In this document: positions 8,501-64,000 of the stretch, in pieces
How the letters are laid out: the number at the start of each line of letters is the position of its first letter
How positions within the stretch are numbered: the first letter of the stretch is position 1
Source of the DNA: an uncultured bacterium
GTDB taxonomy: Bacteria > Patescibacteriota > Minisyncoccia > Phycocordibacterales > Phycocordibacteraceae
Length of the DNA: 64,000 bases
NCBI GenBank assembly: GCA_937879955.1
Contig: CALFMK010000001.1
Coordinates: 5,461-69,460 of the forward strand
Direction of reading: 5' to 3'
Program-made: the position numbers and the translations under genes
Notes under the pieces: model-generated
What the model saw: the letters and a program-made list of their open reading frames with translations, nothing else
The model's database searches: none
What the model was told of the DNA's origin: nothing

Positions 8501-8523
8501 TGTAAATTCTAAAAATTAAAGCT

Positions 8524-9003: not shown

Positions 9004-9111
9004 ATAATCAGATAGCTCTTTGTATAAGATCAGTATGGGTTTAGGAATATGAAAAATATCTCAAAATTGCATAAAGTAATTATGGAGACAGTGGCAGAAA
9101 GCTGATCTAGT

Positions 9112-9148
9112 CACTTCGAAAAGAAGCACCGGACCACATGTCCGGTGC
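9112..9148 (-). terminator. Rho-independent terminator for the 9182..9484 gene.
   Basis: GCACCGGAC-CACAT-GTCCGGTGC hairpin, followed on the minus strand by CTTCTTTTCG. Confidence 0.55.
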
Positions 9149-9181
9149 TAACTAATATGAATCCTATAAGAAAGAGGCAAA

Positions 9182-9484: not shown

Positions 9485-9565
9485 GGGCTTATAATACTGT
9501 AAATAGGCCGTTTTATCCAGGCTTGACTCCTAAAAATGAGGGTCTCCTGAACATGAAGAATTGGC

Positions 9566-9594
9566 TTTCCACGTCTTGACAGTGGTTGTCAACC
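9566..9594 (+). promoter_or_regulatory. Sigma70-type promoter for the 3D-domain gene.
   Basis: TTGACA -35 box at about 9566-9571, a 17-nt spacer, then TACTAT at about 9589-9594. This lies about 50 nt upstream of the ATG at 9644. Confidence 0.5.
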
Positions 9595-9643
9595 CTGCTA
9601 CTATGGGCCTTGTCAGGCCGTCCGCAAGGGCGGTCTTTCATTT

Positions 9644-12897: not shown

Positions 12898-14979
12898 CTA
12901 TGCGCGCTCGATAGTAGCGAGAATCTCCTCGATCTCAGCGAGCCCCGCCGGCTTCGTGAGATGGTGGTCGAACCCGGCCTTCCGGGCCTTCTGTATGTCG
13001 GATTCCTGGCCGTAGCCGGTGAGTGCGACGAGCGTCGCGGCGAACCCATCAGCGCGGAGCGCCGTCGCGACCTCGTAGCCCTCCATGTCCGGCAGGCCGA
13101 TGTCGAGCAGGATCACGTCAGGACGGAACGCGGGCGCGCGGGCGATAGCCTCCTCGCCGGTATATGCGGTTTCGGTACGGTTCCCGCGGAGCGTGAGGAG
13201 CTTCGCGAGCGCGTCGGCCGCGGCGCGGTTGTCGTCCACGACGAGGATGCGGAACCCGTCACGCGCCTTTGGCGCTGCTACGGCCCGTGCCCGCACCCCG
13301 ACGGCTCCCTCCTGCGGGAGCGGGATGCGGACGGTGAACCGGCTCCCGTGTCCGGGCCCGTCGCTCTCGGCCTCGATCGTGCCGTCGTGCATCTCCACCA
13401 GGTTCTTGGTAAGCGAGAGGCCGATGCCGAGACCTGCGTGCATCTTGCCGGGCTGCTCGATCTGGAAGAACGGTTCGAAGACGTGCGCAAGGAGCGCGGC
13501 GTCCATGCCGATGCCGGTGTCCGTCACCGTGACGACGGCCTCGGTCCCGTCCGTGCGTGCCACGAGCTCGATACGGCCTCCGGGCTCGGTGTACTTCGCC
13601 GCGTTGTTGAGGAGGTTCACGAACACCTGCTCGAGACGCACGGGATCGGCCTCGAGGCGGATCGCCTCGTCCGGCATGTCGATCGAGAGCTCGTGCTTGA
13701 GGGACGCCATGAGCGGCGCCACGGTACGCTGGCTCCTTGCGAGCACGGTCTGGAGGTCGATGTGCTCCTTCTGGAGGGAGAGCTTCTCGCGGGTGATGCG
13801 CGAGATGTCGAGCAGGTCGTCGAGGAGATGCCGCATGGTCTTCAGGTGGTCGGTCATGCCTTCGGCGAGCTCGCTCGAGCGAGCGGCATCCGGCCGCTCG
13901 AGCTTCATGATCTCGAGCGAGGACATGAGCGGGGCGAGCGGGTTGCGCAGCTCGTGCGCGAGGGTGGCGATGAAGCGGCTCTTCGCCTCGTCCTCACGGC
14001 GGATCCGCTCCACGGCGTCCTCGAGCCTGCGCACGTTGTCGCGCAGGACGTTCGCGGTGTCCTTGCGCTCCTCCGCGATGGAGACGAGCACGAGGAATAT
14101 GAGGGAGAGCACGATCACGAATATCTCGGTCTGCAGGAGGTCGTATCCGAGCGTCCCTGTACCGGACGCGAGGCTGAGGAACGCGGTGCCGCCGAGCGCG
14201 AGCGCGGCGTTCAGGAAGAGCGCGAGCGTCATGAAGCGCGGGCCGATGCGCAGCGCGATCCAGAGGAACGGGATGAGGATAAGGTATACGAGCGGCACCT
14301 GCGCGATCTCGCGGTATGGGGTCCAGTACAGGAGGAGGCCGGTCCCGACGACGGCCGCTATCGCGACCCAGGCCTCGACGAGCTCGCCCTTCGTGCGCTG
14401 GAACCTGAAGCGCGGCAGCCACTTGATGAGGAGCGGCGTCACGACGAGCATGGAGAGGATGTGCCCGATCCACCACGGGATGAAGGTACCCATGAGGCCG
14501 CGGGGCATGGCGCGCTCGGCCAGGGTGAAGGTGAGGGTTCCGAGCGCCGGGATGAGGATGGTGACGAAGAGCGCGACGAACACGAACATGAGGGTGTCGG
14601 GAGCCTTCGAGAAGGTGTTGCGGTATCCGAGCTTCCGGAGGAGCCAGGTGCCCACGCTTGCCTGTATGGCGTTCGCCGCCGCAAGCCCGAGCGCCACGAA
14701 CAGCACGCTCCCGTTCAGGAGCTGGTGCGCGAGAGCTGCCAGGAATACCGCAGGCCAGAGCGCGATGCCGCCGAGGAGGAGTCCGCCGAGCGCGATGCCG
14801 GATGCCGGCCAGATGAGGGCCGGGGCGGTCGGGACGGAGGAATAGATATGCGAGAAGACCTGGGCGCAGAACAGGTACGCGCAGAACAGCAGCGCCATGT
14901 AGAGGAGCGACCGTCCGGAATAGGGGAAGCGAGGCATAGACGGGTGGATGGCGTTCTCCCTAGGATACATTCTTTTCAT
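12898..14979 (-). CDS. Hybrid sensor histidine kinase: N-terminal polytopic MASE1-like membrane domain, then HisKA, HATPase and a C-terminal receiver.
   Basis: About 8 TM helices (IWPASGIALGGLLLGG...). The H-box is ATLAHELRNPLAP. The N, G1 and G2 boxes are present (DTGIGM..., GLGIGLSL). The C-terminal receiver reads ILVVDDN...DVILLDIGLPDMEG. Confidence 0.9.
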   Translation of the reverse strand: MKRMYPRENAIHPSMPRFPYSGRSLLYMALLFCAYLFCAQVFSHIYSSVPTAPALIWPASGIALGGLLLGGIALWPAVFLAALAHQLLNGSVLFVALGLAAANAIQASVGTWLLRKLGYRNTFSKAPDTLMFVFVALFVTILIPALGTLTFTLAERAMPRGLMGTFIPWWIGHILSMLVVTPLLIKWLPRFRFQRTKGELVEAWVAIAAVVGTGLLLYWTPYREIAQVPLVYLILIPFLWIALRIGPRFMTLALFLNAALALGGTAFLSLASGTGTLGYDLLQTEIFVIVLSLIFLVLVSIAEERKDTANVLRDNVRRLEDAVERIRREDEAKSRFIATLAHELRNPLAPLMSSLEIMKLERPDAARSSELAEGMTDHLKTMRHLLDDLLDISRITREKLSLQKEHIDLQTVLARSQRTVAPLMASLKHELSIDMPDEAIRLEADPVRLEQVFVNLLNNAAKYTEPGGRIELVARTDGTEAVVTVTDTGIGMDAALLAHVFEPFFQIEQPGKMHAGLGIGLSLTKNLVEMHDGTIEAESDGPGHGSRFTVRIPLPQEGAVGVRARAVAAPKARDGFRILVVDDNRAAADALAKLLTLRGNRTETAYTGEEAIARAPAFRPDVILLDIGLPDMEGYEVATALRADGFAATLVALTGYGQESDIQKARKAGFDHHLTKPAGLAEIEEILATIERA

Positions 14980-15044
14980 GAAGCCTACATGAAAGGCCCG
15001 CGCCTTGCTACGGAGCCGTGCTTCGCCGTACTATGGGCTCCACT

Positions 15045-15455
15045 ATGACAGCAAAAGGAAAGTACGTACCCGGCGAGTGGACGCTCGCCGTGAAGCGGTC
15101 GAGCGCCGGCCTCGGCCTGTTCGCGGGCGAGCGCATCCCGAAGGGCGCCTGCGTCATCGAGTATGTCGGACGCACGGTATCGAAGGAGGAGAGCGAGACG
15201 AGCAAGAGCAAGTACCTCTTCGAGATCTCGAAGAACAAGACCATCGACGGGAAGCCGAAGATAAACAAGGCGGGGTACATCAACCATGCCTGCAATCCGA
15301 ACTGCGAGACGGAGATAGCGAAAGGCCGCATCTTCGTGATGGCGATCAAGGACATAAAGCCCGGAGACGAACTCACCTACGACTACGGGAAGGAGTACTG
15401 CCTCGAGCACTGCGTCCCGTGCCGCTGCAGCGCGAAGAAGCACCTGTACGGATAG
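15045..15455 (+). CDS. SET-domain protein (putative protein-lysine methyltransferase).
   Basis: The GxG region is SAGLGLFAGERIPKGACVIEYVG. The NHxCxPN motif is INHACNPNC. The ELxxDY motif is DELTYDYG, and a Cys-rich tail follows (CVPCRCSAKKH). The longest ORF begins at 15018. The start was moved to the ATG at 15045, which sits 10 nt downstream of a TACTAT box. Other candidate starts are 15018 and 15033. Confidence 0.78.
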   Translation: MTAKGKYVPGEWTLAVKRSSAGLGLFAGERIPKGACVIEYVGRTVSKEESETSKSKYLFEISKNKTIDGKPKINKAGYINHACNPNCETEIAKGRIFVMAIKDIKPGDELTYDYGKEYCLEHCVPCRCSAKKHLYG

Positions 15456-22897: not shown

Positions 22898-22986
22898 GGG
22901 TGGCATTGTAGCAGGCCCCGGACGCGTCCAGCCACAGATTCCATCGGTTTTGCGCACCTCGCCTCACCCGCGGTATGATGGCGCCA

Positions 22987-23997
22987 ATGTCCCTCTTCTC
23001 ACCGCGCATCGGCATCGACCTCGGCACTACCAATGTCCTCGTGTTCGTGCCTGGGAAGGGCGTGGTCCTGAACGAGCCGTCGGTCGTGGCGGTCTCCACC
23101 GAGACGAACAAGGTGGTCGCCATCGGGGTGGAGGCCAAGGCGATGGTAGGCCGCACCCCGGACTCCATCCAGGCGTACCGCCCGATGAAGGATGGCGTCA
23201 TCGCGGACTATCGCGTGACCGAGGCGATGCTCCGCTATTTCATAAAGAAGGCACTCGGCCGGAACCTCTTCAAGCCCACCGTCCTCATCTCCGTGCCTGC
23301 GGGCGTTTCCTCCACCGAGAAGCGCGCCGTGATCGAGGCTGCCGTGAAGGCGGGCGCGGCAGACGCGTACGTCGTGAAGGAGCCGATCCTCGCCGCGATC
23401 GGTGCCGGAATCCCGATCCAGGAACCGATGGGGCGCATGGTGGCTGACATCGGCGGCGGCACCATCGACGTGGCCGTGATCTCGCTCGGCGGCATCGTGG
23501 CGTCCACCTCCGTGAAGGTGGCAGGGAACAAGCTCGACCGCGCGATCATCGACCATGTGAAGAAGCAGTACAACCTCTCCATCGGCGACAAGTCGGCCGA
23601 GGACATCAAGATCCAGATCGGCTCGGCCGTCCCGGTCACCGAGGAGCTCACGATGTCGGTGAAGGGACGCGACCTCCTCTCGGGCCTCCCGCGCACCATC
23701 GAGCTCAAGACCAACGAGGTGGTGCAGGCACTGAACCGCGAGCTGCGCGACATGATGAACGCGGTGCGCAAGGTGCTGCAGGACACGCCGCCTGAGCTCG
23801 CAAGCGACATCATCGACAACGGCATCATCCTTACGGGCGGCACGAGCCAGCTCCGCCATCTCCCCGAGCTCGTGTATAGGCGCACCGGCGTGCAGGCGAA
23901 GCTCGCCGACGACGCCTACTACTGCGTCGTGCGCGGCACGGGCATCGCGCTCAAGCATCTCGATACCTATAAGAAGAGCATCATCTCGAAGCGGTAA
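22987..23997 (+). CDS. mreB: Rod-shape-determining protein MreB (actin homolog), copy 1.
   Basis: MSLFSPRIGIDLGTTNVLVFVPGKGVVLNEPSVVAV... has the phosphate 1/2 and adenosine motifs. The start was chosen at the ATG 7 nt downstream of a TATGAT box. The ORF track starts at 22975. Confidence 0.9.
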   Translation: MSLFSPRIGIDLGTTNVLVFVPGKGVVLNEPSVVAVSTETNKVVAIGVEAKAMVGRTPDSIQAYRPMKDGVIADYRVTEAMLRYFIKKALGRNLFKPTVLISVPAGVSSTEKRAVIEAAVKAGAADAYVVKEPILAAIGAGIPIQEPMGRMVADIGGGTIDVAVISLGGIVASTSVKVAGNKLDRAIIDHVKKQYNLSIGDKSAEDIKIQIGSAVPVTEELTMSVKGRDLLSGLPRTIELKTNEVVQALNRELRDMMNAVRKVLQDTPPELASDIIDNGIILTGGTSQLRHLPELVYRRTGVQAKLADDAYYCVVRGTGIALKHLDTYKKSIISKR

Positions 23998-29933: not shown

Positions 29934-30995
29934 ATGGCAAAAGGAAACCGCTTCTCGAAGAGCTCGCTCTTCTCCACCGACATCGGCATCGACCTCGGCA
30001 CCGGCAATACGCTCGTGTACGTGCGCGGCCGCGGCATCGTGATATCGGAGCCGTCGGTGGTGACGCTCAACGAGAAGACCGGCCAGATGGTGGCGGTCGG
30101 GAAGGAGGCGAAGGCCATGCTCGGCAAGACGCCGCCGCACATCCGCGCGGTGCGTCCCTTGTCGCACGGCGTCATCTCCGACTTCGAGGTGACGGAGGAG
30201 CTGCTCGCGTATTTCATAAACAAGGCGCAGGGCGGACGCTCCAGGCTCTTCGGGCCAAGAGTGGTGGTGGGCGTGCCGACCGGCGTGACGAACGTCGAGT
30301 CGAGAGCGGTGCGCGACGCGGCGATGACGGCGGGCGCGCGCGAGGTGTTCATCCTCGAGGAGCCGATGGCGGGCGCGATCGGCGCGAAGCTCCCGGTCAT
30401 GGAGGCGGTGGGCACCATGGTGCTCGACATCGGCGCAGGCACTACCGACATCGCGGTCATCGCGCTCGGCGGATCGGTAGCAGGGAAGAGCTCGCAGGTC
30501 GCGGGCGACCGGTTCAACGAGAACATCATCGATTTCGTGCGCAGCGAGTTCCAGCTCGCCATCGGCGAGAAGACCGCCGAGGACACCAAGATCGCCATCG
30601 GCGCGGTGCTCCCGCTCGCGACGCCGCTCGAGAAGGCGATCCGCGGACGCGACCTCGCCACCGGCCTCCCGCGCGAGATCACCCTCAACGACTCACACAT
30701 GCGCGACGCGCTCGCGCCGTCCATGGAAGCGCTCATGGAGGCGATGAAAGAGGTCATCGAGAAGACGCCGCCCGAGCTCCTCTCGGACGTGCTCGAGCGC
30801 GGCGTCACCGTGTTCGGCGGCGGCGCCTTGCTCCGCGGCCTGCCTGAGCTCCTCGCGAAGATGCTCGGCGTGCCGGTGCACGTGGCCTCTGATCCTCTCA
30901 CGGCCGTGGTGCGTGGCACCGGCGTCGTGACGGAGGACCCGCGCCCGTGGAATGACGCATTCATGCATGAAGAAGCGATTCTCCCGAAGGCATAA
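29934..30995 (+). CDS. mreB: MreB-family actin homolog, copy 2, immediately upstream of mreC.
   Basis: MAKGNRFSKSSLFSTDIGIDLGTGNTLVYVRGRGIVISEPSVVTL... is full length. It is a paralog of the gene at 22987. Confidence 0.9.
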   Translation: MAKGNRFSKSSLFSTDIGIDLGTGNTLVYVRGRGIVISEPSVVTLNEKTGQMVAVGKEAKAMLGKTPPHIRAVRPLSHGVISDFEVTEELLAYFINKAQGGRSRLFGPRVVVGVPTGVTNVESRAVRDAAMTAGAREVFILEEPMAGAIGAKLPVMEAVGTMVLDIGAGTTDIAVIALGGSVAGKSSQVAGDRFNENIIDFVRSEFQLAIGEKTAEDTKIAIGAVLPLATPLEKAIRGRDLATGLPREITLNDSHMRDALAPSMEALMEAMKEVIEKTPPELLSDVLERGVTVFGGGALLRGLPELLAKMLGVPVHVASDPLTAVVRGTGVVTEDPRPWNDAFMHEEAILPKA

Positions 30996-31755
30996 CTCGT
31001 TCGTCGGCGCGTATCCGTGGGTCGGTCCCGCGCTCATAAGCCTCGTGGCGCTCGTGCTCGTCATGGGCCTCTTCCGCTTCCTCCTCCCGGGCGCGCTTGT
31101 CGCGGTGTCGAAGCCGTTCTGGTCCGCAGGCACCTCGCTCTCCGCGGGCGTCGGGAATGTCGGCTCGTTCTTCACGGACAAGACGAAGCTCGCGAACGAG
31201 CGCGATGCGCTCGCAAGCGAGAACGCCGCGCTGAAGGCTGCCGGCGCGACGAGCGCGGCCCGCATCACGGACCTCGAGCGCCTGCTCGGAGACCGCACGG
31301 AGGCGGGTAACGGCGTCCTTGCGGGTGTCCTCGCGCGTCCGCCCGTATCCCCGTACGACGTGCTCGTCATCGACCAGGGAAGCGATGCGGGCATCAAGGA
31401 GGGCAGCCGCGTGCAGGGGCCGGGCGGCATGCCGCTCGGCGTTATCGAGAGCGTGACGAAGTCGTCCGCGCGCGTCCTCCTGTACTCGGCGCCTGCCAAC
31501 GAGACGGAGAGCTGGATCGGCGAGGCGCGCATCCCCGTGACCGTGGTCGGCGAGGGCGCCGGCAGCCTGAGCGCGGAGGTTGCGCGCGAGGCGGGCGTCG
31601 CCGTGGGCGATCTCGTCTACATGATGGGTCCGGGCGCACGGGCGGTGGGCACGGTCATCGAGGTCGGCAACGACCCGTCCTCGCCGCGCTCGAGGGTCGA
31701 CATCCACCCGCTCCAGAACCCGTTCTCCATCACCTGGGTGACCGTGACGCCATGA
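30967..31755 (+). CDS. mreC: Rod-shape-determining protein MreC.
   Basis: N-terminal TM, a coiled coil (ANERDALASENAALKAAG) and a C-terminal beta-barrel region (GVLAGVLARPPVSPYDVLVIDQGSDAGIKEG). It lies between mreB and mreD. Confidence 0.8.
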   Translation: MKKRFSRRHNSFVGAYPWVGPALISLVALVLVMGLFRFLLPGALVAVSKPFWSAGTSLSAGVGNVGSFFTDKTKLANERDALASENAALKAAGATSAARITDLERLLGDRTEAGNGVLAGVLARPPVSPYDVLVIDQGSDAGIKEGSRVQGPGGMPLGVIESVTKSSARVLLYSAPANETESWIGEARIPVTVVGEGAGSLSAEVAREAGVAVGDLVYMMGPGARAVGTVIEVGNDPSSPRSRVDIHPLQNPFSITWVTVTP

Positions 31756-32006
31756 TCCGCTTCGCAGCCGTAGCCGCCGCCTTCGTCTCGCTCTTCGTAT
31801 TCCCATGGCCGGTCTCGGCCGCCTTCATGCTCGCGGCGAGCCTCTTCCTGCCGCCGGCAGGCATCGCGCTCGGCCTCGTCGCCGACCTTTCGTACTTTGT
31901 CCCGGGTGCGGCCCTCTTTCCGTACCTCTCCGTCTGGGGCGTCGCCTGCACGCTCGCGAGCCTGCTCGTGCATCGTTTCGTGAAGACGCGTATCATCAAC
32001 GGATGA
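31752..32006 (+). CDS. mreD: Small polytopic membrane protein in the MreD position.
   Basis: 84 aa, hydrophobic. Its stop overlaps the pbp2 start (ATGA). Confidence 0.55.
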   Translation: MIRFAAVAAAFVSLFVFPWPVSAAFMLAASLFLPPAGIALGLVADLSYFVPGAALFPYLSVWGVACTLASLLVHRFVKTRIING

Positions 32007-33673
32007 TCCTCAGGCGGCGCAGGCGAAGACGGGGGCTCGAGCTCGATCCGGACGAGATCTTCCTCGATTCCTCGAACACCTCGGGCTTCGACAGGAGCCA
32101 GCTGGAAGGGAGGCTCGAGAAGCCCATCGACCGCACCACGTTCGCGGGCATCGGCATCGTGATAGCGCTCATGTTCACGACCCTGCTCACGCAGGCCGCG
32201 AACCTCCAGATACACCAAGGAGACGAGTACGCGGCGCGCTCGGAGCGCAACCGCCTCCGCCCCCAGGTGCTCTTCGCCGAGCGCGGCGCCATCGTGGACC
32301 GCAACGGCGAGCCGCTCGTCTACAACGAGGAAGGCGAGGACGGGTTCGTGAAGCGCGTGTACGCGTACCCGGGATTCTCGCACCTCCTCGGCTACGTGTC
32401 GTACCCGAAGAAGGACTCCTCGGGCAATTTCTACGAGACGAAGATCGAGGGACTGAACGGCGTGGAGGAGGCGTTCGACCTGGCGCTCTCGGGCGAGAAC
32501 GGCACGCTGCTCGTGGAAGAGGATGCGCACGGCGACATCCAGTCGTCAGGCACCGTGAAGCCTGCCACGAAGGGGCAGACCGTGACGCTCTCGATAGACG
32601 CGCGGGCGCAGCGGGCCTTCGCGCACTCCATCAGCGAGCTCGCCGACCGCATCCCGTTCATGGGCGGCTCCGCCATCCTCATGGACGTGAACACGGGCGA
32701 GGTGCGCGCGCTCGTCTCCTATCCCGAGTACGACCCGAACGTGCTCTCGTCCGGCGGGCCGTCGAACGTGATCGCGGGATACCAGACCAACCCGCGCCGC
32801 GTCTATCTCGACCGCGCGGTCTCCGGCATCTATACGCCAGGCTCGATCGTGAAGCCGATGGAGGCGGCGGGCGCGATCAGTGACGGCGTGGTGACGCCTG
32901 AGTGGGGCATCGTCTCGACGGGTTCCATCTCCATCCCGAACCCGTACAACCCGGACAAGCCGAGCATCTTCAAGGACTGGAAGGCGCACGGCTGGGTGGA
33001 CGCGCGCCGCGCCATCGCGGTCTCCTCCGACGTGTACTTCTACGCCGTGGGCGGCGGGTACGGCGACGTGAAGGGCCTCGGCATCGAGCGCCTCAAGTAC
33101 TGGTTCGAGGCATTCGGCTTCACGAGCCCGACGGGCATCGAGCTCTCGGGCGAGGCCTCGGGCTTCGTGCCGGATCCGGCCTGGAAGGAGGCGAAGTACG
33201 ACGAGCCATGGCGCCTCGGCGACACGTACAACACCTCGATCGGGCAGTACGCGATGCAGATAACGCCGCTCGAGGCCGCGCGCGCGGTGGCGGCGGTCGC
33301 CAACGGCGGGAAGCTCGTTAAGCCCACCCTCATCAAGGACGCGCCGCTCCAGGGGCAGACCATTCCGATCAGCCAGGACGCGCTTAAGGTCGCGCGCGAG
33401 GGCATGCGCCTCGGCGCGGTCGAAGGCACGTCGGTGGGCCTCGCGCCGCTCTCGTTCGTGAAGCTCGCCGGAAAGACCGGCACGGCGCAGCTCGGCGTGA
33501 ACAACGAGTTCTACAACTCGTGGGCGGTGGGGTACTTCCCGTACGACAACCCGAAGTACGTGTACGTGGTGGTGATGGAGCGCGGTCCCTCCACCAACGC
33601 GATCGGCGGCATCTACGCGACGTATCAGGCGCTCGCGGAGCTGCATCGGACGGCGCCGGAGTACTTCGAGTAG
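32003..33673 (+). CDS. mrdA: Penicillin-binding protein 2 (elongasome transpeptidase).
   Basis: N-terminal TM. The motifs are SxxK (GSIVKP), SxN and KTG (KTGTAQ). It is in the mreBCD operon. The start was trimmed to MILRRRRRRRG. Confidence 0.9.
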   Translation: MILRRRRRRRGLELDPDEIFLDSSNTSGFDRSQLEGRLEKPIDRTTFAGIGIVIALMFTTLLTQAANLQIHQGDEYAARSERNRLRPQVLFAERGAIVDRNGEPLVYNEEGEDGFVKRVYAYPGFSHLLGYVSYPKKDSSGNFYETKIEGLNGVEEAFDLALSGENGTLLVEEDAHGDIQSSGTVKPATKGQTVTLSIDARAQRAFAHSISELADRIPFMGGSAILMDVNTGEVRALVSYPEYDPNVLSSGGPSNVIAGYQTNPRRVYLDRAVSGIYTPGSIVKPMEAAGAISDGVVTPEWGIVSTGSISIPNPYNPDKPSIFKDWKAHGWVDARRAIAVSSDVYFYAVGGGYGDVKGLGIERLKYWFEAFGFTSPTGIELSGEASGFVPDPAWKEAKYDEPWRLGDTYNTSIGQYAMQITPLEAARAVAAVANGGKLVKPTLIKDAPLQGQTIPISQDALKVAREGMRLGAVEGTSVGLAPLSFVKLAGKTGTAQLGVNNEFYNSWAVGYFPYDNPKYVYVVVMERGPSTNAIGGIYATYQALAELHRTAPEYFE

Positions 33674-41686: not shown

Positions 41687-41758
41687 GGTGGGTTGATGAT
41701 ACCGGCAACAGCCAGGAAAAGAAAAAGGCCCCGACATGATGTCGGGGCCAATGCTGCC

Positions 41759-42766
41759 TCATATAGGGGCGGAAAGTGCGTAGTCTCCGGTCCTCGTGGT
41801 GCGAAGCGCGCTGAGGCCGTGGCTGTGATAGAGCGCCCTCCATTCGGCATACTCCGCCGCGCTCAGTCCCGGATACTTTGCCAGGACGTAGGGAAGCGGG
41901 ATGCCGCCCTTCTCGACGAGCAGGACGATCACCGCCTTGCGGCGTATGACCCATCGCGTGTCCTGCGCTTCGGACGGGAGGTCCTCGGCGCAGATCTTCA
42001 TTCCCAGGGGGCCCGTGATCGTCTTCTTCGGGTCGAAGCAGACCGTCGGGTTCGCGCTCGGATCGAGCCTGAGCTCGCCGAAGTAGTAGCCGCGGCCCCA
42101 GACGGTCCTGAGCGGAGGGTTACCCGGGAAGAACGCCCCGAGAGCCTTCCGCATCCTGCACGCATGCACGTCGATTATCTTCGGATCGACATGCGTGCCT
42201 TCCTCGTGCCTCGCATCCAGCAGCATCTGCCGCGTATGGATGATCCCGGACTTCGAGATGAGGGTCGTGAGCAGGCGGGCCTCGTCAGGGGTGATGCGCG
42301 CGCGCTGGCCCCCGATGAAGACCTCGTCGAGCCCGTTGATGACGATCGGAACGCCTTCGTGCACGGACTCGAGCTTGGTCGCGACGGATTGCAGCTCGGC
42401 TCCGTCTTCAAGCGCGAGCATGTAGCCCCTCCTGGGATGCGTGCTGATGACCTGCCTTGCGGCGGGGTGGCACGCGGCGAGCCGCATGCGGATATGGTGG
42501 ATATGGGTGTCGATCACCTTATCGAGCGGAGGATGCTCCTTGTTGCCGTCGATGACGCGCTTGAGGCTCGCCTTCGACTGCAGATGGCCACGCCGATCCA
42601 TCATGTAGAGGAAGAGCTTCTGCTCCGAAGGCGTGAACTTGGCGGAGATCTCGTTTACTGAGACCTGGCCGCTCGAGGCGATCTTGAACACCAGCTCTCC
42701 GTACGTAAGCTGGATAGGGTCTCGCTGGGGAGCCGCGTGGGTTCCCGTACGTTCGACGACGCTCAT
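41759..42766 (-). CDS. Receiver-less transcription regulator with two tandem CtrA/OmpR-type winged-helix DNA-binding domains fused to a C-terminal DUF1153-like HTH domain.
   Basis: Domain 1 contains ...DKVIDTHIHHIRMRL...VISTHPRRGYML. Domain 2 contains ...DPKIIDVHACRMRKALG...LRTVWGRGYYF, which closely matches the CtrA recognition helix/wing ([13 protein letters not shown]...[10 protein letters not shown]). The C-terminus DTRWVIRRKAVIVLLVEKGGIPLPYVLAKYPGLSAAEYAEWRALYHSHGLSALRTTR matches the DUF1153 pattern. The start was set at the ATG with an AGGAG SD 9 nt upstream. The ORF-track TTG at 42820 lies inside the promoter/5'UTR. Confidence 0.75.
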   Translation of the reverse strand: MSVVERTGTHAAPQRDPIQLTYGELVFKIASSGQVSVNEISAKFTPSEQKLFLYMMDRRGHLQSKASLKRVIDGNKEHPPLDKVIDTHIHHIRMRLAACHPAARQVISTHPRRGYMLALEDGAELQSVATKLESVHEGVPIVINGLDEVFIGGQRARITPDEARLLTTLISKSGIIHTRQMLLDARHEEGTHVDPKIIDVHACRMRKALGAFFPGNPPLRTVWGRGYYFGELRLDPSANPTVCFDPKKTITGPLGMKICAEDLPSEAQDTRWVIRRKAVIVLLVEKGGIPLPYVLAKYPGLSAAEYAEWRALYHSHGLSALRTTRTGDYALSAPI

Positions 42767-42808
42767 GTACTTGCTCCTAGATACCTTGGTTTCAACGAAT
42801 CCAGAGCC

Positions 42809-42837
42809 AGTAAATGACAAGAAGGAGGCCGTGTCAA
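42809..42837 (-). promoter_or_regulatory. Sigma70-type promoter of the double-wHTH/DUF1153 gene.
   Basis: On the minus strand, TTGACA, a 17-nt spacer, then TTTACT. This sits about 45 nt upstream of the SD/ATG. Confidence 0.45.
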
Positions 42838-42912: not shown

Positions 42913-43683
42913 TCAGGCCATCGGCGCCGGACTCGGGGCGCCGGAGCCGTTCGTGAAGGCCGGTCTCGCGGCCTCGGCGATCGGAAGATCTTCTGCCATC
43001 ACGCGCTCGTTCGGGTCGCGCAGCACGTAGCCGCGGCCCCAGACGGTCTCGATGTGGTGCCTGCCGCTGTTACCGGAAGCGAGCTTCCTGCGCAGCTTGC
43101 AGACGAACACGTCCACGATCTTGAGTTCCGGCTCGTCCATGCCGCCGTACAGGTGGTTCAGGAACATCTCCTTGGTGAGGGTGGTGCCCTTGCGCAAGGA
43201 GAGGAGCTCCAGTATCTGGTACTCCTTGCCGGTCAGGTGCACGTGCTTCCCGCCGATCTCGACGGTCTTCGCGTCGAGGTTCACGACGATCTCGCCGGTC
43301 TTGATGACCGACTGGGCATGACCCCGCGAGCGCCGCACGATCGCGTGGATGCGCGCGATCATCTCGTCCTTGTGGAACGGCTTGGTCATGTAGTCGTCGG
43401 CGCCGCCCGCGAAGGTCTTCACCTTCATGTCGATCTCGGCGGATCGCGCCAGGATCATGATCGGCGTGTTGACCTTCGCGACCCTGATGGTGCGAAGCAC
43501 GTCGATCGCTGACATGTCGAGCAGGTCGAGACTGAGTACGATCATGTCGTAGTCATATATCTTTGCCAGATCGACGCCCTCCTCGCCCAGGTCGGTCACG
43601 TAGACGTTGAAGCCTTCCGACTTCAGCATCAGCTCGATCGTCTGGGCGGTAGCGCTGTCGTCTTCGATCAGGAGAATACGCAC
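42913..43683 (-). CDS. CtrA-family response regulator paralog with the phospho-acceptor Asp replaced by Ser, plus a C-terminal extension.
   Basis: 256 aa. [28 protein letters not shown]...[20 protein letters not shown]...[53 protein letters not shown]...[17 protein letters not shown] matches CtrA along its whole length. The receiver position that aligns with CtrA D51 is Ser ([16 protein letters not shown]). It has a GTG start with a GAGGAG SD. Confidence 0.88.
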
Positions 43684-43736
43684 GCTTAGCTCTCCTCTGT
43701 GTCTGTTTGATTATCGGGAACGCATGTCTGGGATTG

Positions 43737-43764
43737 ATGATAGTGATTATCCGGGCATTGTCAA
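43737..43764 (-). promoter_or_regulatory. Sigma70-type promoter of the first ctrA paralog.
   Basis: On the minus strand, TTTTGACAAT, a 16-nt spacer, then TATCAT. A leader of about 60 nt with the SD follows. Confidence 0.5.
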
Positions 43765-43788
43765 AAGTAGCGAATGCTCCTGTCCCTC

Positions 43789-43826
43789 AGGTAAGAAATT
43801 GGCCGCCCTTCGTGAGAAGGACGGCC
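43789..43826 (-). terminator. Terminator after the second ctrA gene.
   Basis: GGCCGTCCTTC-TCACG-AAGGGCGGCC, followed on the minus strand by AATTTCTTACC. Confidence 0.5.
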
Positions 43827-43851
43827 AGGTATCTTCGGATGGGTGATGCTA

Positions 43852-44547
43852 CTACGCCGCGGATACCATCTCGTTCTCGTCGCGCAGCACGTAGCCGCGG
43901 CCCCAGACGGTATCGATGTGATGCTTGCCGCCGTTGCCCGAGCCGAGCTTCTTGCGAAGCTTGCAGATAAAGACGTCCACGATCTTGATCTCGGGAACAT
44001 CGATGCCGCCGTACAGGTGATTCAAGAACATCTCCTTGGAAAGGGCGGTGCCCTTGCGTAGCGACAGGAGCTCGAGCATCTGGTACTCCTTGCCGGTCAG
44101 GTGCACGCGCGTGCCGCCGACCTCGACGGTCTTCATGTCGAGGTTCACGACGATCTCGCCGGTCTTGATGACCGAATGAACGAGACCCTTCGAGCGCCGT
44201 ACGATCGCATAGATGCGAGCCACGAGCTCGTCCTTATGGAACGGCTTGGTCATGTAGTCGTCGGCGCCGAGGTTCAGCGCCTTCACCTTCGTCTCGATGC
44301 GGGTGTCGCCGGTCGAGATCATGACGAGCGTCTCGATCTTCTCGGCGCGGAGCGTCCGGAGAACGTCGAGGCCGTACATGTCAGGCAGGTTAAGGTCGAG
44401 CAGGATCAGGTCGTAGTCGTAGGACCTCGCGAGATCGAGACCCTCCTCGCCCAGGTCGGTCGTCTGGACGCTGAAACCTTCCGACATCAGCATCAGCTCC
44501 ACCGTTTGGGCAGTGGCGCCGTCATCTTCGATCTGGAGAACGCGCAT
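43852..44547 (-). CDS. ctrA: CtrA-family response regulator (canonical receiver with phospho-Asp).
   Basis: 231 aa. [25 protein letters not shown]...[24 protein letters not shown]...[20 protein letters not shown]...[53 protein letters not shown]...[17 protein letters not shown]. The AGGAGG SD sits 8 nt upstream. The start was trimmed from the longer ORF. Confidence 0.88.
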
Positions 44548-44596
44548 TATGAAATCCTCCTGTTTCCGTTGTCTGGATGGAACGTGTCTGATTTTG

Positions 44597-44624
44597 ATAC
44601 TACGACTACTCCATGGATTGTCAA
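44597..44624 (-). promoter_or_regulatory. Sigma70-type promoter of the second ctrA gene.
   Basis: On the minus strand, TTTGACAAT, a 16-nt spacer, then TAGTAT. This is the same architecture and the same -35-extended motif as the ctrA paralog promoter. Confidence 0.5.
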
Positions 44625-44644: not shown

Positions 44645-44675
44645 GGGAAAGGCGGCCATGCGTGGCCGCCTTTGC
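44645..44675 (-). terminator. Hairpin terminator after the 44675..44974 gene.
   Basis: AAAGGCGGCCA-TGCG-TGGCCGCCTTT. Confidence 0.45.
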
Positions 44676-44974
44676 TAGGGAGGTGGGAAGAGCGGCAGCT
44701 GTCGTGCATCCTGCGCCGCTCGCGCTTCGGCGCGCTCACGCTTCTTGCTGTTTCTCGAACGCGTCGCGCCCGCTTTCTTGCCGTACCGCTGACGGAGTCT
44801 CGCGACGAGGCCTTCGGGCGTATCGGCATCGGGCCAGCAGGTGCTGTTCAGGAACTCGTTCGCCTTTTGTACGAGCTCCTTATTCGTGAATCGGTTAAGG
44901 TCCTTCGGGCCGTGCCGCCTCCGGAAGCGCAGGTTCCGCTCGAATGCGTCGAGACGCTCTTCAGGGGACAGCAT
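44675..44974 (-). CDS. Hypothetical basic protein (99 aa).
   Basis: Intact ORF. It overlaps the upstream small ORF by 14 nt. No recognisable motif. Confidence 0.4.
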
Positions 44975-45176
44975 GCCGTCTCCTTTTCGGGGCGCGTATG
45001 ATGCCGCGATTCCGGAGTTCGGCGAGGACTTCCGCCACGCGTCTCCTTATATCGGGAGCATGGCGGATATTCTTCCCTTCGATTGCCTTGATCGCCGCGA
45101 GCGGCCACCCGACGCTCTTGTCGGAACGCTGCTTCACGCGGATAGTCGCCTCGGTAAGCTCTGCAATGCTTAACAT
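44961..45176 (-). CDS. Small hypothetical protein (71 aa), possibly HTH/excisionase-like.
   Basis: MLSIAELTEATIRVKQRSDKSVGWPLAAIKAIEG... loosely resembles an AlpA/Xis-type HTH. This is a weak resemblance. Confidence 0.3.
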   Translation of the reverse strand: MLSIAELTEATIRVKQRSDKSVGWPLAAIKAIEGKNIRHAPDIRRRVAEVLAELRNRGIIRAPKRRRHAVP

Positions 45177-45250
45177 CTGACACCTCTCAAAGATCCAGAT
45201 ATCGTGCTGGAAAAACTATACCGAACGGAGAAAGGGCATGTCAAACCTCT

Positions 45251-61886: not shown

Positions 61887-62006
61887 ATGGCACGCCGAGC
61901 AAAGAAACATTCCAAGGGACCGGGGCTCGAGGTCTACGCGTTCTGGACCGGGTTCGCGAGCACTATCATCAGCCTCCTGCACGTGCTCATCGTGGCGAGC
62001 AAGTAG
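61887..62006 (+). CDS. Small tail-anchored hydrophobic peptide (39 aa), paralog B.
   Basis: MARRAKKHSKGPGLEVYAFWTGFASTIISLLHVLIVASK. It aligns with paralog A over the core (K..L.LYAF.TG..ST.ISL..L.I.A.K-stop). Confidence 0.4.
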   Translation: MARRAKKHSKGPGLEVYAFWTGFASTIISLLHVLIVASK

Positions 62007-62010
62007 CGCC

Positions 62011-62130
62011 ATGGCAGAGAATAAGCCTGCACCATCGTTCCGTGACCCGAAGCGCGGCATGAGCGCGTTCTCGAGCAAGGGCGTGAAGAAGCCTGTACGC
62101 GCGTCGTATTTCGGAAAGAAGGCGCGATAG
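62011..62130 (+). CDS. Small basic ORF (39 aa), tentative.
   Basis: MAENKPAPSFRDPKRGMSAFSSKGVKKPVRASYFGKKAR. It is the third in the tandem series, immediately before a terminator. Confidence 0.25.
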   Translation: MAENKPAPSFRDPKRGMSAFSSKGVKKPVRASYFGKKAR

Positions 62131-62136
62131 GGAAGG

Positions 62137-62170
62137 GAAAAGCCGGAGTAGGGATGCTCCGGCTTTTACG
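62137..62170. terminator. Bidirectional terminator.
   Basis: AGCCGGAG-TAGGGATG-CTCCGGCT flanked by AAAA and TTTT. Confidence 0.65.
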
Positions 62171-62182
62171 TAGGTGGATGCG

Positions 62183-62368
62183 TCATCGGGTGCGGCCGCT
62201 GTAGGTGAGCACGCCGGCGATTATGATCGCGACGGTGACAGTCCGTCCGGCGATCTGTACGACAGGGTCCGGATGGAGATTCGCCGCGAGCGAGCAGAGC
62301 AGCATCACGAGAGCGACGGTGTACAGAATGATCGAGATACCCCTACTTTCAGGACTATGACGCGACAT
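62183..62368 (-). CDS. Small membrane protein (61 aa, two TM helices).
   Basis: IILYTVALVMLLCSLAANL...VAIIIAGVLTY. An AGGAAAGG SD sits upstream. Confidence 0.45.
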   Translation of the reverse strand: MSRHSPESRGISIILYTVALVMLLCSLAANLHPDPVVQIAGRTVTVAIIIAGVLTYSGRTR

Positions 62369-62552
62369 GGCACGGACCTTTCCTAAAGAGCGATACCGAG
62401 CTCTTCCGCTAGTATGCGCTCCGCCGGGGATTTGTTAAGCAGAAAGGCACTCGACTTTATCTTTTCTTTATCTCTCGTACATACACTGAGCCGGGTAGTT
62501 CTTTCATCCTGCAAGGTCGCCCGTAGCGACTGCGCATGAATACCCGCATAGG

Positions 62553-62590
62553 GGAGAGCGAACCGTCCGTCAGGGCGGTTCGCTCTTTAG
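62553..62590 (+). terminator. Rho-independent terminator ending a possible small RNA.
   Basis: AGAGCGAACCG-(tccgtcaggg)-CGGTTCGCTCT followed by TTAG. The next gene has its own TATAGT box 10 nt upstream of its ATG. Confidence 0.6.
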
Positions 62591-62648
62591 TGGTGTAATA
62601 TTTTAGCCCTAAACACGGTACGCGCACGGTGCTATAGTCGAGGTATCT

Positions 62649-63014
62649 ATGCCTTGGCCACGAGTGGGGGACTGGTTGGAGAGGATCAGTAAATCGAACG
62701 CGCTCTATCCGCTCCTCATAGCGCTATGCCTCTCCGTCGCGTTCGCCGGTACGGTCATAGCATTCGTACCGAACGTTCTCATCCAGGTCATCGTCTGTAT
62801 ACCAGTGCTGATGATCGTATTCCAGATCGTCCGGAGCTTCGAGTACTTCTCCAAGAACAACCCGGACATGCTCCGGACCGAGACGCATGTGATCCAGCAG
62901 CGCGTCCTCGAGATGATGGGGGACGAGTCCGGCGTCGTGCACGCGACTGCGGCCGACCTGGTAGCCATAACGAATCCTGCGAATACCCAGGATAGAATCG
63001 AAAACCATGGCTAA
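62649..63014 (+). CDS. Membrane protein (121 aa).
   Basis: Two TM helices (LYPLLIALCLSVAFAGTVIAFV; IQVIVCIPVLMIVFQIV). Confidence 0.55.
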   Translation: MPWPRVGDWLERISKSNALYPLLIALCLSVAFAGTVIAFVPNVLIQVIVCIPVLMIVFQIVRSFEYFSKNNPDMLRTETHVIQQRVLEMMGDESGVVHATAADLVAITNPANTQDRIENHG

Positions 63015-63294
63015 CATCTATCTTATCGCCGTAAAGAATGATGATTCCTTCAATGTTAAGGAATTCCATAAATTTGTTAAGGAAAAACTCTATCCTGAGC
63101 ATGTGGGCGGTTGGTGGCATTACGTTTCTGGACCAACCTATCTCGTTAAGTCGGAAACACTTGATGCTAAGGGAATATCCGAAATCATCACCCAGTTCAC
63201 TGGCAAGCAGAGTCATCTTGTTACCAAGATCGATCTAGAAGATATCGAAGGAATGTTGCCGGCTCGCGCATGGGACTGGCTCGGACTCTACTAA
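63007..63294 (+). CDS. Hypothetical protein in the terminal low-GC island (95 aa).
   Basis: Intact ORF at about 40% GC. No motifs recognised. Confidence 0.45.
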   Translation: MANIYLIAVKNDDSFNVKEFHKFVKEKLYPEHVGGWWHYVSGPTYLVKSETLDAKGISEIITQFTGKQSHLVTKIDLEDIEGMLPARAWDWLGLY

Positions 63295-63512
63295 TGGAGC
63301 ACATCACACTTCAAGAGTATGAAGATACTGATGGAACGAGGATGGAGCTCGGTATCCAGTATGACGAAGCTACCTACCAGTTCATCGTTTCCGGAACGCC
63401 AATTAATGGCAATGGGGCGTATGAGGCAGGGAAGACGCCCATTTTCGCATCCTTCCCGACCCTCGAAGAAGCAAGGATGTTCGTAGAAAAGAGTTTCACT
63501 AAGATCTCCTAG
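63295..63512 (+). CDS. Hypothetical protein in the terminal low-GC island (72 aa).
   Basis: Its ATG directly follows the upstream stop (TAATGG). No motifs recognised. Confidence 0.4.
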
Positions 63513-63571
63513 GAATCTTCGGTTTATTTTTTCTCCAGGATTCCTTTATCCGGGGCTGGTAGGGTTCGGAT

Positions 63572-64000
63572 ATGGCAATGGTAGAAGAAAATCTGATACT
63601 TTCCCTCTTGAAGAAAGAGTTTCCGAAGGCGCCCGAACAGGTATTGAGACAATGGCTTGCTCCAGCTGTTAAGAAGGACGGTTGGCCACCGACCGGACTT
63701 CATTGGATCGGTGTATTGGGGAAAAGGGATCTGGATTTCTGGAAAAAGAAGGAATGGTCCCTTAAGGACGTTAACCTCGAAGAAGCTTCCTGGGATTACG
63801 ATACTAGGTACGCGGCAGAAAAGGTGCTCGAAGGGTTTGTTGCATCTCAAGAATCTGAAGTCCTCTTCTCTGATTCTCATGAGAAGCAGAAGGTCATACG
63901 AGCACTTAAGCACCTTTCAGTCGAAGGAAGCTTCTTCGAGCCGATAACCGCATTTCTCGTAGAAAACGAATCTGGTGGCTACTCGCTCGTAGACGGATTC
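63572..64000 (+). CDS. Hypothetical protein, 5' fragment running off the window. Its reading frame stays open to the window end.
   Basis: A 143-codon open frame (MAMVEENLILSLLKKEFPKAPEQVLRQWLAPAVKKDGWPP...) with no stop before 64000. It is low GC. I prefer it over the overlapping minus-strand ORF 63524..63913, which has low-complexity, junk-like composition. Confidence 0.4.
   Translation, partial: MAMVEENLILSLLKKEFPKAPEQVLRQWLAPAVKKDGWPPTGLHWIGVLGKRDLDFWKKKEWSLKDVNLEEASWDYDTRYAAEKVLEGFVASQESEVLFSDSHEKQKVIRALKHLSVEGSFFEPITAFLVENESGGYSLVDGF

What the first reader, a model, noticed from the sequence alone, without database searches (positions are those of the whole stretch)
41759..42766. Receiver-less protein with two tandem CtrA-like winged-helix domains and a DUF1153-like tail
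The domain order is wHTH, wHTH, small HTH, with no receiver. The second wHTH is nearly identical to CtrA in the recognition helix and wing (IIDVHACRMRKAL / TVWGRGYYF). I do not know of a described architecture like this. It could bind CtrA boxes constitutively while carrying a domain of the SciP type.
Basis: partly seen in the sequence, partly recalled or inferred. Interest (0 to 1): 0.75.

Follow-up and report, generated by a model that had tools for sequence, protein, structure and literature searches.

The report
Receiver-less double winged-helix SciP fusion regulator
This is a real, conserved gene in an ultra-small (Patescibacteria/CPR) bacterium that joins two OmpR-type DNA-binding domains to a SciP-like domain and sits directly after two CtrA genes, so a cell-cycle regulatory module known from Alphaproteobacteria appears to have been rebuilt in a phosphorylation-independent form in an unrelated phylum.

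Summary
Window 41759..42766 (-) encodes a 335-aa protein with two OmpR/PhoB-type winged helices and a DUF1153/SciP domain and no receiver. Each domain passes its Pfam threshold, and the alignment-based AlphaFold model is confident (pLDDT 87). It is not unique and not a pseudogene. An exhaustive HMMER scan found 14 other cluster representatives with the same three-domain order (24-29% identity, aligned end to end). It also found 62 one-wHTH+SciP proteins and about 30 other SciP/CtrA fusions. Three independent contigs share the synteny YqeY-CtrA(x1-2)-X-TruB. The host is a Patescibacteria/Paceibacterota bacterium, and the adjacent CtrA paralogues are 60-73% identical to alphaproteobacterial CtrA. 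One paralogue has lost its phospho-acceptor Asp (D51S). "Nearly identical to CtrA" is overstated: the wing matches 7/7, the recognition helix 8/14, and domain 2 overall 34-35%. Domain 1 is a diverged family-specific wHTH. The most likely mechanism (inferred) is a single-chain tandem wHTH that binds direct repeats without phosphorylation, with the SciP domain modulating CtrA or RNA polymerase. No CtrA boxes occur in the window. No publication on this family or on CtrA in CPR was found. I class it as a new variant of a known kind, of moderate to high interest.

The parts
41759..42766 (-). Coding sequence of protein X (335 aa): wHTH-wHTH-SciP-like, no receiver
   Evidence: ORF list and sequence. 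The identical protein P0001 is in the public collection on one 591-kb contig. GC3 is 0.81, like neighbouring genes.
42416..42715 (-). Domain 1 (aa 18-117): diverged OmpR/PhoB-type winged helix
   Evidence: Pfam Trans_reg_C 39.8 bits alone. The AF2 model shows beta-sheet, 3 helices and a hairpin. It best matches the family's domain-1 profile (73 bits) and scores only 18.5 bits against CtrA DBDs. It is the least conserved domain (22% mean pairwise identity), and R93 is invariant.
42080..42379 (-). Domain 2 (aa 130-229): CtrA-derived winged helix (KIIDVHACRMRKAL ... TVWGRGYYF)
   Evidence: Pfam 53.4 bits. It is 34-35% identical to the local CtrA DBDs. It scores 43 bits against the CtrA-DBD profile and 84 bits against the short-form family wHTH profile. 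W223, G224 and G226 are invariant, and K196, R206 and R225 are conserved in at least 90% of sequences.
41780..42028 (-). SciP-like (DUF1153) helix-turn-helix domain (aa 247-329), with the family-specific YPGLS/YPDLS variant
42774..42778 (-). Shine-Dalgarno AGGAG, 7 nt before the ATG at 42766
   Evidence: Read from the sequence.
42809..42837 (-). Own promoter-like element TTGACA-N17-TTTACT
   Evidence: Read from the sequence. The same TTGACA-N17/18-TTTACT/TTTAAT arrangement lies upstream of the orthologues in L002 and L006. The consensus scanner does not flag it because the -10 hexamer has T at position 2.
41727..41749 (-). Intrinsic terminator directly after the stop codon of X (the gene is monocistronic)
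   Evidence: Terminator scan: 10-bp stem, 8 GC pairs, followed by TTTTTCTTTT.
42913..43683 (-). ctrA paralogue 1 (256 aa), directly upstream. Ser replaces the phospho-acceptor Asp51. It has a C-terminal extension containing AEDLP.
   Evidence: NCBIfam CtrA 380 bits, above the cut-off of 350. The alignment to Brucella CtrA 4qpj shows D51S, N53D and P55L. It has its own TTGACA-16-TATCAT promoter at 43764..43737.
43852..44547 (-). ctrA paralogue 2 (231 aa), canonical receiver (D51, K105), ends in -SAA
   Evidence: NCBIfam CtrA 359 bits. It is 72% identical to paralogue 1 and 60-68% identical to alphaproteobacterial CtrA. Promoter at 44624..44597 and terminator at 43827..43800.

Best explanation
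X is a functional, vertically conserved transcription regulator of a Patescibacteria (Paceibacterota/Minisyncoccota) lineage. It belongs to an undescribed family in which a CtrA-type winged helix is fused to a SciP-like domain. In the long form, that winged helix is preceded by a second, more diverged copy. Proposed mechanism (inferred): OmpR/PhoB regulators bind direct repeats as head-to-tail pairs, and that pairing normally requires receiver phosphorylation. Here the two winged helices are joined by a linker of about 12 residues, running from the C-terminal hairpin of domain 1 to the N-terminal sheet of domain 2. This would make a single-chain tandem pair that can occupy a two-half-site operator without any phosphorylation input. 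The SciP-like domain would then act as free SciP does in Caulobacter: it contacts CtrA (encoded immediately upstream) and/or adjacent DNA, and blocks or modulates RNA polymerase recruitment at CtrA-type promoters. X would therefore be a constitutive, kinase-independent brake or co-regulator of the CtrA regulon. What is shown: the domains, the fold, the family, the synteny and the host lineage. What is inferred: DNA binding, tandem-site geometry, the link to CtrA, and the sign of regulation.
For: Domains and fold are supported. The family is supported by an exhaustive HMMER search. It gave 15 wHTH-wHTH-SciP representatives including X and 62 wHTH-SciP. It also gave 24 SciP-wHTH, 6 SciP-REC-wHTH, 2 REC-wHTH-SciP and 1 REC-SciP-wHTH. 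Such repeated independent fusions of SciP with CtrA-type domains argue for a functional partnership. Conserved gene order supports the link to CtrA. L002 has RadC-..-YqeY-RR-RR-X-TruB-..-MurF, L006 has RmuC-ATPase-YqeY-RR-X-..-TruB, and L007 has a CtrA 3' end, X and TruB. This order holds although the X orthologues are only 24-29% identical. The neighbouring RRs are true CtrA orthologues: 359-380 bits against a cut-off of 350 and 60-73% identity to alphaproteobacterial CtrA. Both recognition helices keep an Arg (R93 invariant, R206 in at least 90% of sequences) at the position of PhoB R203, which I recall from the PhoB-DNA structure 1GXP. The CtrA wing WGRGY is kept in domain 2. X has its own promoter and terminator. 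[quoted passage not shown] A pTM of 0.68 for a three-domain chain suggests a defined inter-domain arrangement.
Against: There is no experimental or motif evidence for the DNA target. The window has no TTAA-N7-TTAA, even with 1 mismatch, where about 2.0 are expected. Domain 2 is only 34-35% identical to CtrA DBDs, and the residue at the PhoB-R201 base-contact position varies across the family (K/R/N/Y/Q/T). In four relatives the domain-1 wing has lost the GY motif, so domain 1 may not bind DNA in all members. Two long-form contigs (L008, L020) and the short-form loci examined (L001, L005; also L021-L024) show no adjacent CtrA. The SciP domain scores below the NCBIfam equivalog cut-off (61 versus 100 bits). 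I could not inspect inter-domain contacts in the model.
Confidence: 0.55

Rival explanations
1. X is an autonomous DNA-binding regulator that only descends from CtrA and SciP. Its winged helices have acquired a new specificity. The SciP-like HTH serves as a third DNA-reading head or an oligomerisation module. X controls its own regulon, for example the neighbouring envelope and division genes, without touching CtrA.
For: Identity to CtrA DBDs is only moderate. Residues at base-contact positions differ. There are no CtrA boxes in 64 kb. The short-form loci L001 and L005 and the long-form loci L008 and L020 lack an adjacent CtrA. Direct sequence-specific DNA binding by SciP has been reported (PMC4287350). 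X has an independent promoter and terminator.
Against: X is tightly and repeatedly placed next to ctrA in diverged genomes. SciP has fused with CtrA-type domains many times and in every order. The CtrA-specific wing and Cys-containing recognition helix are retained across the family.
Confidence: 0.27
2. X is a competitive decoy or anti-activator that works through its winged helices only. It occupies CtrA half-sites as a non-activating CtrA-DBD mimic. The SciP domain mainly sets protein stability (protease targeting) rather than contacting CtrA.
For: There is no receiver and so no phosphorylation-dependent activation surface. In the family, 7 of 15 long forms and 13 of 62 short forms end in -AA or -LAA, resembling the ClpXP signal at the C-terminus of CtrA as I recall it. 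SciP is described as an unstable Lon substrate (PMC6847485).
Against: X itself ends in ...LSAPI, without -AA. The SciP domain is the most conserved part of the family (39% mean identity versus 22-30% for the wHTHs), which suggests a specific interaction surface rather than a degron carrier.
Confidence: 0.13
3. X is a decaying remnant: a truncated or rearranged third ctrA copy fused by accident to sciP, or an assembly chimera, with no function.
For: It lies in a tandem array of ctrA-like units, each with a hairpin and a TTGACA promoter. One neighbouring paralogue has already lost its phospho-acceptor.
Against: The ORF is intact and has a Shine-Dalgarno sequence. Fourteen diverged full-length relatives show the same domain order. 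Synteny is conserved. The AF2 model is confident for all three domains. The identical protein was recovered in independent Logan assemblies.
Confidence: 0.03

Closest known systems
SciP (CtrA inhibitor, Caulobacter crescentus; Pfam DUF1153 PF06627; NCBIfam NF051866; structures 2jrt, 2oa4)
   Same: The C-terminal 85 residues match DUF1153 at 64-68 bits and 2jrt by both sequence and fold. The RWVxRRKA and GLxALRTTR motifs are kept. The gene lies next to ctrA.
   Different: SciP is a free protein of about 90 aa, whereas here the domain is the tail of a 335-aa protein. It scores below the equivalog cut-off (61 versus 100 bits). It carries a family-specific YPGLS/YPDLS motif where canonical SciP has RYxLS. 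The host is not an alphaproteobacterium.
CtrA (OmpR-family cell-cycle response regulator; NCBIfam NF045991)
   Same: Domain 2 keeps the CtrA wing TVWGRGY, the Cys-containing recognition helix and the K-I-I-D-V start. Two true CtrA genes are adjacent.
   Different: X has no receiver domain and so no phospho-acceptor. Its CtrA model score is 59 bits against a cut-off of 350. DBD identity is only 34-35%. H201, A202 and R204 replace CtrA's F, I and K.
Other SciP/CtrA fusions in metagenomes (SciP-wHTH, SciP-REC-wHTH such as P0008 in an LpxI/BamA-type Gram-negative context, REC-wHTH-SciP such as P0006 and P0007)
   Same: They use the same two building blocks, which shows that the partnership is fused recurrently.
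   Different: The domain order differs. Most keep a canonical SciP sequence and, in several cases, a receiver. None has two winged helices ahead of the SciP domain.
Receiver-less OmpR-type winged-helix regulators (ToxR, TcpP, CadC; SARP/AfsR, EmbR)
   Different: Those proteins have a single wHTH joined to membrane/periplasmic sensor domains or to BTAD/NB-ARC domains. None has a tandem wHTH or a SciP domain.
PhoB effector domains bound head-to-tail on the pho box (PDB 1GXP)
   Same: This is a model for how two OmpR-type domains occupy successive direct repeats. X's domains superpose on PhoB-DBD chains at Foldseek TM 0.76-0.81, normalised to the target.
   Different: In PhoB the two domains belong to separate chains brought together by receiver phosphorylation. 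In X they are covalently linked.

Membership tests
OmpR/PhoB winged-helix DNA-binding domain (Pfam PF00486 Trans_reg_C) | Sequence match above the Pfam gathering score for each copy | tested here: met
   Domain 1 scores 39.8 bits and domain 2 scores 53.4 bits against a cut-off of 26.2.
OmpR/PhoB winged-helix DNA-binding domain (Pfam PF00486 Trans_reg_C) | Fold: N-terminal beta-sheet, three helices, C-terminal beta-hairpin wing | tested here: met
OmpR/PhoB winged-helix DNA-binding domain (Pfam PF00486 Trans_reg_C) | Binds DNA direct repeats | not testable with these tools
   Only conservation of the recognition-helix Arg (R93, R206) could be shown.
CtrA (NCBIfam NF045991 equivalog) | Receiver domain with phospho-acceptor Asp51 | tested here: not met
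   There is no Response_reg match in X. The N-terminus is a second wHTH.
CtrA (NCBIfam NF045991 equivalog) | Whole-protein score at or above the curated cut-off (350 bits) | tested here: not met
   X scores 59.2 bits, while the two neighbours score 380 and 359 bits.
CtrA (NCBIfam NF045991 equivalog) | CtrA-type recognition helix and wing | tested here: inconclusive
   The wing is 7/7 identical and the helix 8/14 identical. Overall DBD identity is 34-35%. The CtrA-DBD profile gives 43 bits for domain 2 and 18.5 bits for domain 1.
CtrA (NCBIfam NF045991 equivalog) | Recognises TTAA-N7-TTAA boxes | not testable with these tools
   No such box exists in the 64-kb window, even with 1 mismatch. Binding itself needs experiment.
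SciP (Pfam PF06627 DUF1153 / NCBIfam NF051866) | DUF1153 match above the gathering score | tested here: met
   63.8 bits in the whole protein and 67.6 bits for the domain alone, against a cut-off of 23.5.
SciP (Pfam PF06627 DUF1153 / NCBIfam NF051866) | NCBIfam equivalog cut-off (100 bits) | tested here: not met
   61 bits.
SciP (Pfam PF06627 DUF1153 / NCBIfam NF051866) | Stand-alone small protein of about 90 aa | tested here: not met
   The domain is the C-terminal part of a 335-aa protein.
SciP (Pfam PF06627 DUF1153 / NCBIfam NF051866) | Fold of the solved DUF1153 proteins | tested here: met
SciP (Pfam PF06627 DUF1153 / NCBIfam NF051866) | Binds CtrA and inhibits CtrA-dependent transcription | not testable with these tools
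   Only adjacency to ctrA and the recurrent fusions are available as evidence.
Unnamed wHTH-wHTH-SciP family (this work) | End-to-end alignment with the same domain order and no receiver | tested here: met
   Fourteen other 50%-identity cluster representatives have the same order (307-338 aa). Most match as a single HMMER stretch spanning most of X. See also the alignment A1 and the architecture census.
Unnamed wHTH-wHTH-SciP family (this work) | Position directly downstream of ctrA and upstream of truB | tested here: met
   This holds for the window, L002 (identical to L003/L004), L006 and L007. It does not hold in L008 and L020.

The most novel reading that the evidence does not exclude
A CtrA-SciP regulatory module was acquired by a Patescibacteria (CPR) lineage from Alphaproteobacteria and rewired to work without kinases. 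The rewired parts are a single-chain tandem winged-helix/SciP protein (X) and CtrA paralogues with dead phospho-acceptors (D51S here, D51N/K105L in L002). Together with one canonical CtrA, they would form a new cell-cycle or division control circuit in ultra-small episymbiotic bacteria, where almost nothing is known about cell-cycle regulation.
Probability: 0.3. Interest if true: 0.8.

Novelty: new variant of a known kind. Interest (0 to 1): 0.62.

Why it matters
CtrA and SciP are textbook components of alphaproteobacterial cell-cycle control. Whether SciP works through CtrA contact or through its own DNA binding is still debated in the literature. A natural covalent fusion of a CtrA-type DNA-binding domain with SciP, fused repeatedly and in several orders, is a Rosetta-stone argument that the two act on the same DNA-bound complex. 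It also offers a fixed-stoichiometry object for structural work. In addition, true CtrA orthologues (60-73% identical to alphaproteobacterial ones) lie in conserved synteny in Patescibacteria genomes, next to pseudo-receiver paralogues and this receiver-less protein. This points to horizontal acquisition and rewiring of a master regulator in organisms whose division control is unknown and which cannot easily be cultured. The tandem wHTH design also suggests a general way to make OmpR-type binding independent of phosphorylation.

Tried and rejected
(1) AlphaFold2 on the single sequence failed (pLDDT 38). Only the family alignment gave a usable model.

(2) The word-index homology search made X look like an orphan: the only hit above 37% identity was itself. 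Domain 1 alone found nothing. This impression was wrong, because the exhaustive HMMER scan found the family.

(3) A profile search with alignment A2 in the word-indexed database was swamped by ordinary CtrA proteins and returned only P0001 and P0166 from the family.

(4) An exact look-up of P0001's contig found nothing on record. The first genome-contig scan with X alone found nothing. Alignment A1 was too diverse for pattern scans.

(5) The afdb50 fold library was unavailable.

(6) I tested the idea that the family is phage-borne. The viral-contig scan returned only generic wHTH matches, and none extended into the SciP domain. I rejected this on the available evidence.

(7) The search for CtrA boxes found zero hits at 0 and at 1 mismatch.

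(8) I checked whether the MASE1 hybrid kinase at 12898..14979 is CckA-like. No CckA-specific match appeared.

(9) The pseudogene or truncation reading was rejected, as explained under the rival explanations.

(10) Literature searches for DUF1153, and for CtrA together with Patescibacteria, CPR or Parcubacteria, found nothing relevant.

Full report
**The object.** Window 41759..42766 (minus strand) is an intact ORF of 335 codons. Its ATG at 42766 is preceded by AGGAG 7 nt upstream. Further upstream lie a TTGACA-N17-TTTACT element (42837..42809) and the hairpin that ends the preceding gene. A strong intrinsic terminator (41749..41727) follows the stop codon. The gene is therefore a monocistronic unit. 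Its third-position GC (0.81) matches the surrounding genes.

**Domains.** Pfam finds two Trans_reg_C stretches and one DUF1153 in the whole protein and no receiver. Scanned separately, each piece passes its gathering score: 39.8 and 53.4 bits against 26.2, and 67.6 bits against 23.5. NCBIfam's best match to the tail is "CtrA inhibitor SciP" at 61 bits, below the equivalog cut-off of 100. The CtrA model scores 59 bits against a cut-off of 350. PDB sequence search links the tail to the DUF1153 NMR structures 2jrt and 2oa4, and both N-terminal domains to OmpR-family DNA-binding domains.

**Structure.**
- A single-sequence AlphaFold run was useless.
- With a 27-sequence family alignment, the model reached pLDDT 87.4 and pTM 0.68.
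- It shows two complete winged-helix units (aa 18-117 and 130-229) and a helical C-terminal domain.

**How CtrA-like are the winged helices?**
- Domain 2 is 34-35% identical to the DNA-binding domains of the two neighbouring CtrA proteins.
- Its wing TVWGRGY is identical to CtrA's.
- Its recognition helix shares 8 of 14 residues, including the CtrA-typical Cys.
- H201, A202 and R204 replace CtrA's F, I and K.
- Profile tests place domain 2 closest to the family's own wHTH (63-84 bits), then to CtrA (43 bits).
- Domain 1 matches the family's domain-1 profile (73 bits, X excluded from the profile) and barely matches CtrA (18.5 bits).
- "Two CtrA-like domains, nearly identical" is thus an overstatement. 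It is one CtrA-derived domain plus an older, diverged duplicate.

**Not an orphan.** The word-indexed search suggested that X had no relatives above 37% identity other than itself. It did reveal other SciP/CtrA fusions. The exhaustive HMMER scan of 1.84 billion cluster representatives found 1221 hits. I classified the best 150 together with P0001-P0008 using local profiles:

| Architecture | Representatives |
|---|---|
| wHTH-wHTH-SciP (including X) | 15 |
| wHTH-SciP | 62 |
| SciP-wHTH | 24 |
| SciP-REC-wHTH | 6 |
| REC-wHTH-SciP | 2 |
| REC-SciP-wHTH | 1 |
| Free SciP | 25 |

The 14 long-form relatives align with X end to end at 24-29% identity (21% for P0166). Conservation rises from domain 1 (22%) to domain 2 (30%) to the SciP domain (39%). 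Across the alignment, R93, V200, W223, G224, G226, W272 and K277 are invariant, and R206 and R225 are conserved in at least 90% of sequences. This rules out a pseudogene or truncation.

**Genomic context and host.**
- Directly upstream, on the same strand, lie two genes that pass NCBIfam's CtrA equivalog threshold (380 and 359 bits).
- They are 60-73% identical to CtrA of Rhodobacterales, Azospirillum and other Alphaproteobacteria.
- Downstream is a divergent TruB. Further out are YqeY, RadC, a P-type ATPase and RmuC on one side, and MurF, FtsI and RsmH on the other.
- The same order occurs on three independent metagenomic contigs carrying X orthologues. L002 has RadC-..-YqeY-RR-RR-X-TruB-..-MurF. 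L006 has RmuC-ATPase-YqeY-RR-X-..-TruB. L007 has a CtrA 3' end, then X, then TruB.
- Two other long-form contigs (L008, L020) lack it.
- The organism is a Patescibacteria bacterium. The OmpR-type regulator at 325..999 falls in a 90%-identity cluster with NCBI MAG proteins labelled Patescibacteria group and Candidatus Paceibacterota (now Minisyncoccota).
- The only representative-genome hit for the family is a Candidatus Kaiserbacteria MAG carrying a 191-aa short form.
- The window otherwise holds housekeeping genes, many divergent or without Pfam matches, on a 591-kb contig.
- No phage copies of the fusion were found.

**The neighbouring CtrA genes.** Paralogue 1 (42913..43683) has Ser at the phospho-acceptor position. 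This was verified against the solved Brucella CtrA receiver (D51S, N53D, P55L). Paralogue 2 is canonical and ends in -SAA. In L002 it is the first copy that is degenerate (D51N, K105L) and the second that is canonical. In two lineages the locus thus combines one phosphorylatable CtrA, one pseudo-receiver CtrA and the receiver-less X.

**Mechanism.**
- Established knowledge: OmpR/PhoB effector domains bind direct repeats head to tail (PhoB-pho box, PDB 1GXP, from my own knowledge).
[quoted passage not shown] Other work reports that it binds DNA itself next to CtrA sites, with cooperative stabilisation of both proteins (PMC4083442, PMC4287350).
- Proposal for the DNA-binding part: X is a single-chain tandem wHTH that occupies a two-half-site operator without phosphorylation.
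- Proposal for the SciP-like domain: it contacts CtrA and/or flanking DNA to restrain CtrA-dependent promoters.
- Support is indirect. It consists of recurrent fusion, adjacency to ctrA, conserved recognition-helix arginines and the CtrA wing, a short inter-domain linker, and a fairly high pTM.
- Evidence against a simple "binds CtrA boxes" reading:
  - There are no TTAA-N7-TTAA sites in 64 kb, even with one mismatch.
  - Residues at base-contact positions vary.
  - Domain-1 wings are degenerate in four relatives.
- I give the combined explanation 0.55, an autonomous-regulator rival 0.27, a decoy/stability variant 0.13, and a remnant or artefact 0.03.

**Novelty.** The parts are known, but the combination, the family and above all the host are not described in any paper I could find. 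I class it as a new variant of a known kind. Interest is moderate to high, mainly because it reveals a CtrA/SciP-derived, partly kinase-independent module in CPR bacteria and provides a natural CtrA-DBD/SciP fusion relevant to the open question of how SciP works.

Noticed in passing
window 42913..43683 (-): CtrA paralogue 1 has Ser instead of the phospho-acceptor Asp51 (also N53D and P55L) relative to solved Brucella CtrA. It is otherwise 62-68% identical to alphaproteobacterial CtrA, so it is a pseudo-receiver CtrA. In the related contig L002 the other tandem copy is the degenerate one (D51N, K105L).
   Followed up: partly
window 42913..43005 (-), C-terminal tail of CtrA paralogue 1: The tail is a roughly 30-aa extension, ...[30 protein letters not shown]. 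It contains AEDLP, the same five residues that open the SciP-like domain of X (KICAEDLPSEA). It could be a relic of an older CtrA-SciP fusion, or it could be chance. This copy also lacks the -AA end that paralogue 2 (-SAA) and many family members have.
   Followed up: no
whole window; 325..999 (-), 42913..44547 (-): The window comes from a Patescibacteria/Paceibacterota (CPR) genome yet encodes bona fide CtrA orthologues (NCBIfam 359-380 bits; 60-73% identity to alphaproteobacterial CtrA). This suggests horizontal acquisition. No paper linking CtrA to CPR was found.
   Followed up: partly
window 44550..44600 and 43690..43740 (-); L002 about 3420-3440; L006 about 5795-5805; L008 about 310-325: The hexamer CAGACA(C) recurs in the leaders of ctrA-2 (two copies 15 nt apart) and ctrA-1 (two copies 25 nt apart). 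It also recurs upstream of orthologous genes in other contigs. It may be a regulatory site.
   Followed up: no
window 42809..42837 (-); L002 about 4270-4305; L006 about 5745-5780: X orthologues share a promoter-like TTGACA-N17/18-TTTACT/TTTAAT with an unusual T at position 2 of the -10 element. This is conserved across orthologues that are less than 30% identical.
   Followed up: partly
window about 44672..45176 (-): Two small, very basic ORFs lie between YqeY and ctrA-2, with their own strong promoter-like site (TTGACA-18-TATAGT at 45244..45215). I did not scan them against any protein-family library.
   Followed up: no
window 6000..10000 and 62000..64000: These are low-GC islands (47% and 51%, against about 64% elsewhere). 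Their ORFs have low GC3, and the one ORF I scanned had no Pfam hit. They may be foreign DNA.
   Followed up: no
window 12898..14979 (-) and 325..999 (-): There is a MASE1-HisKA-HATPase-REC hybrid histidine kinase and a separate OmpR-type response regulator. The kinase showed no CckA-specific match. Whether it feeds the CtrA paralogues is unknown.
   Followed up: partly
window 22975..23997 (+), 29934..30995 (+), 30952..33673 (+), 15018..15455 (+): Two MreB paralogues plus MreC and a PBP2-type transpeptidase are present, along with a SET-domain protein, in a genome of a supposedly tiny bacterium.
   Followed up: no
family-wide (P0138, P0143, P0144, P0148, P0150, P0167, P0170 and 13 short forms): Many X-family proteins end in -AA or -LAA, resembling the ClpXP recognition signal of CtrA and ssrA tags. 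X itself does not.
   Followed up: partly
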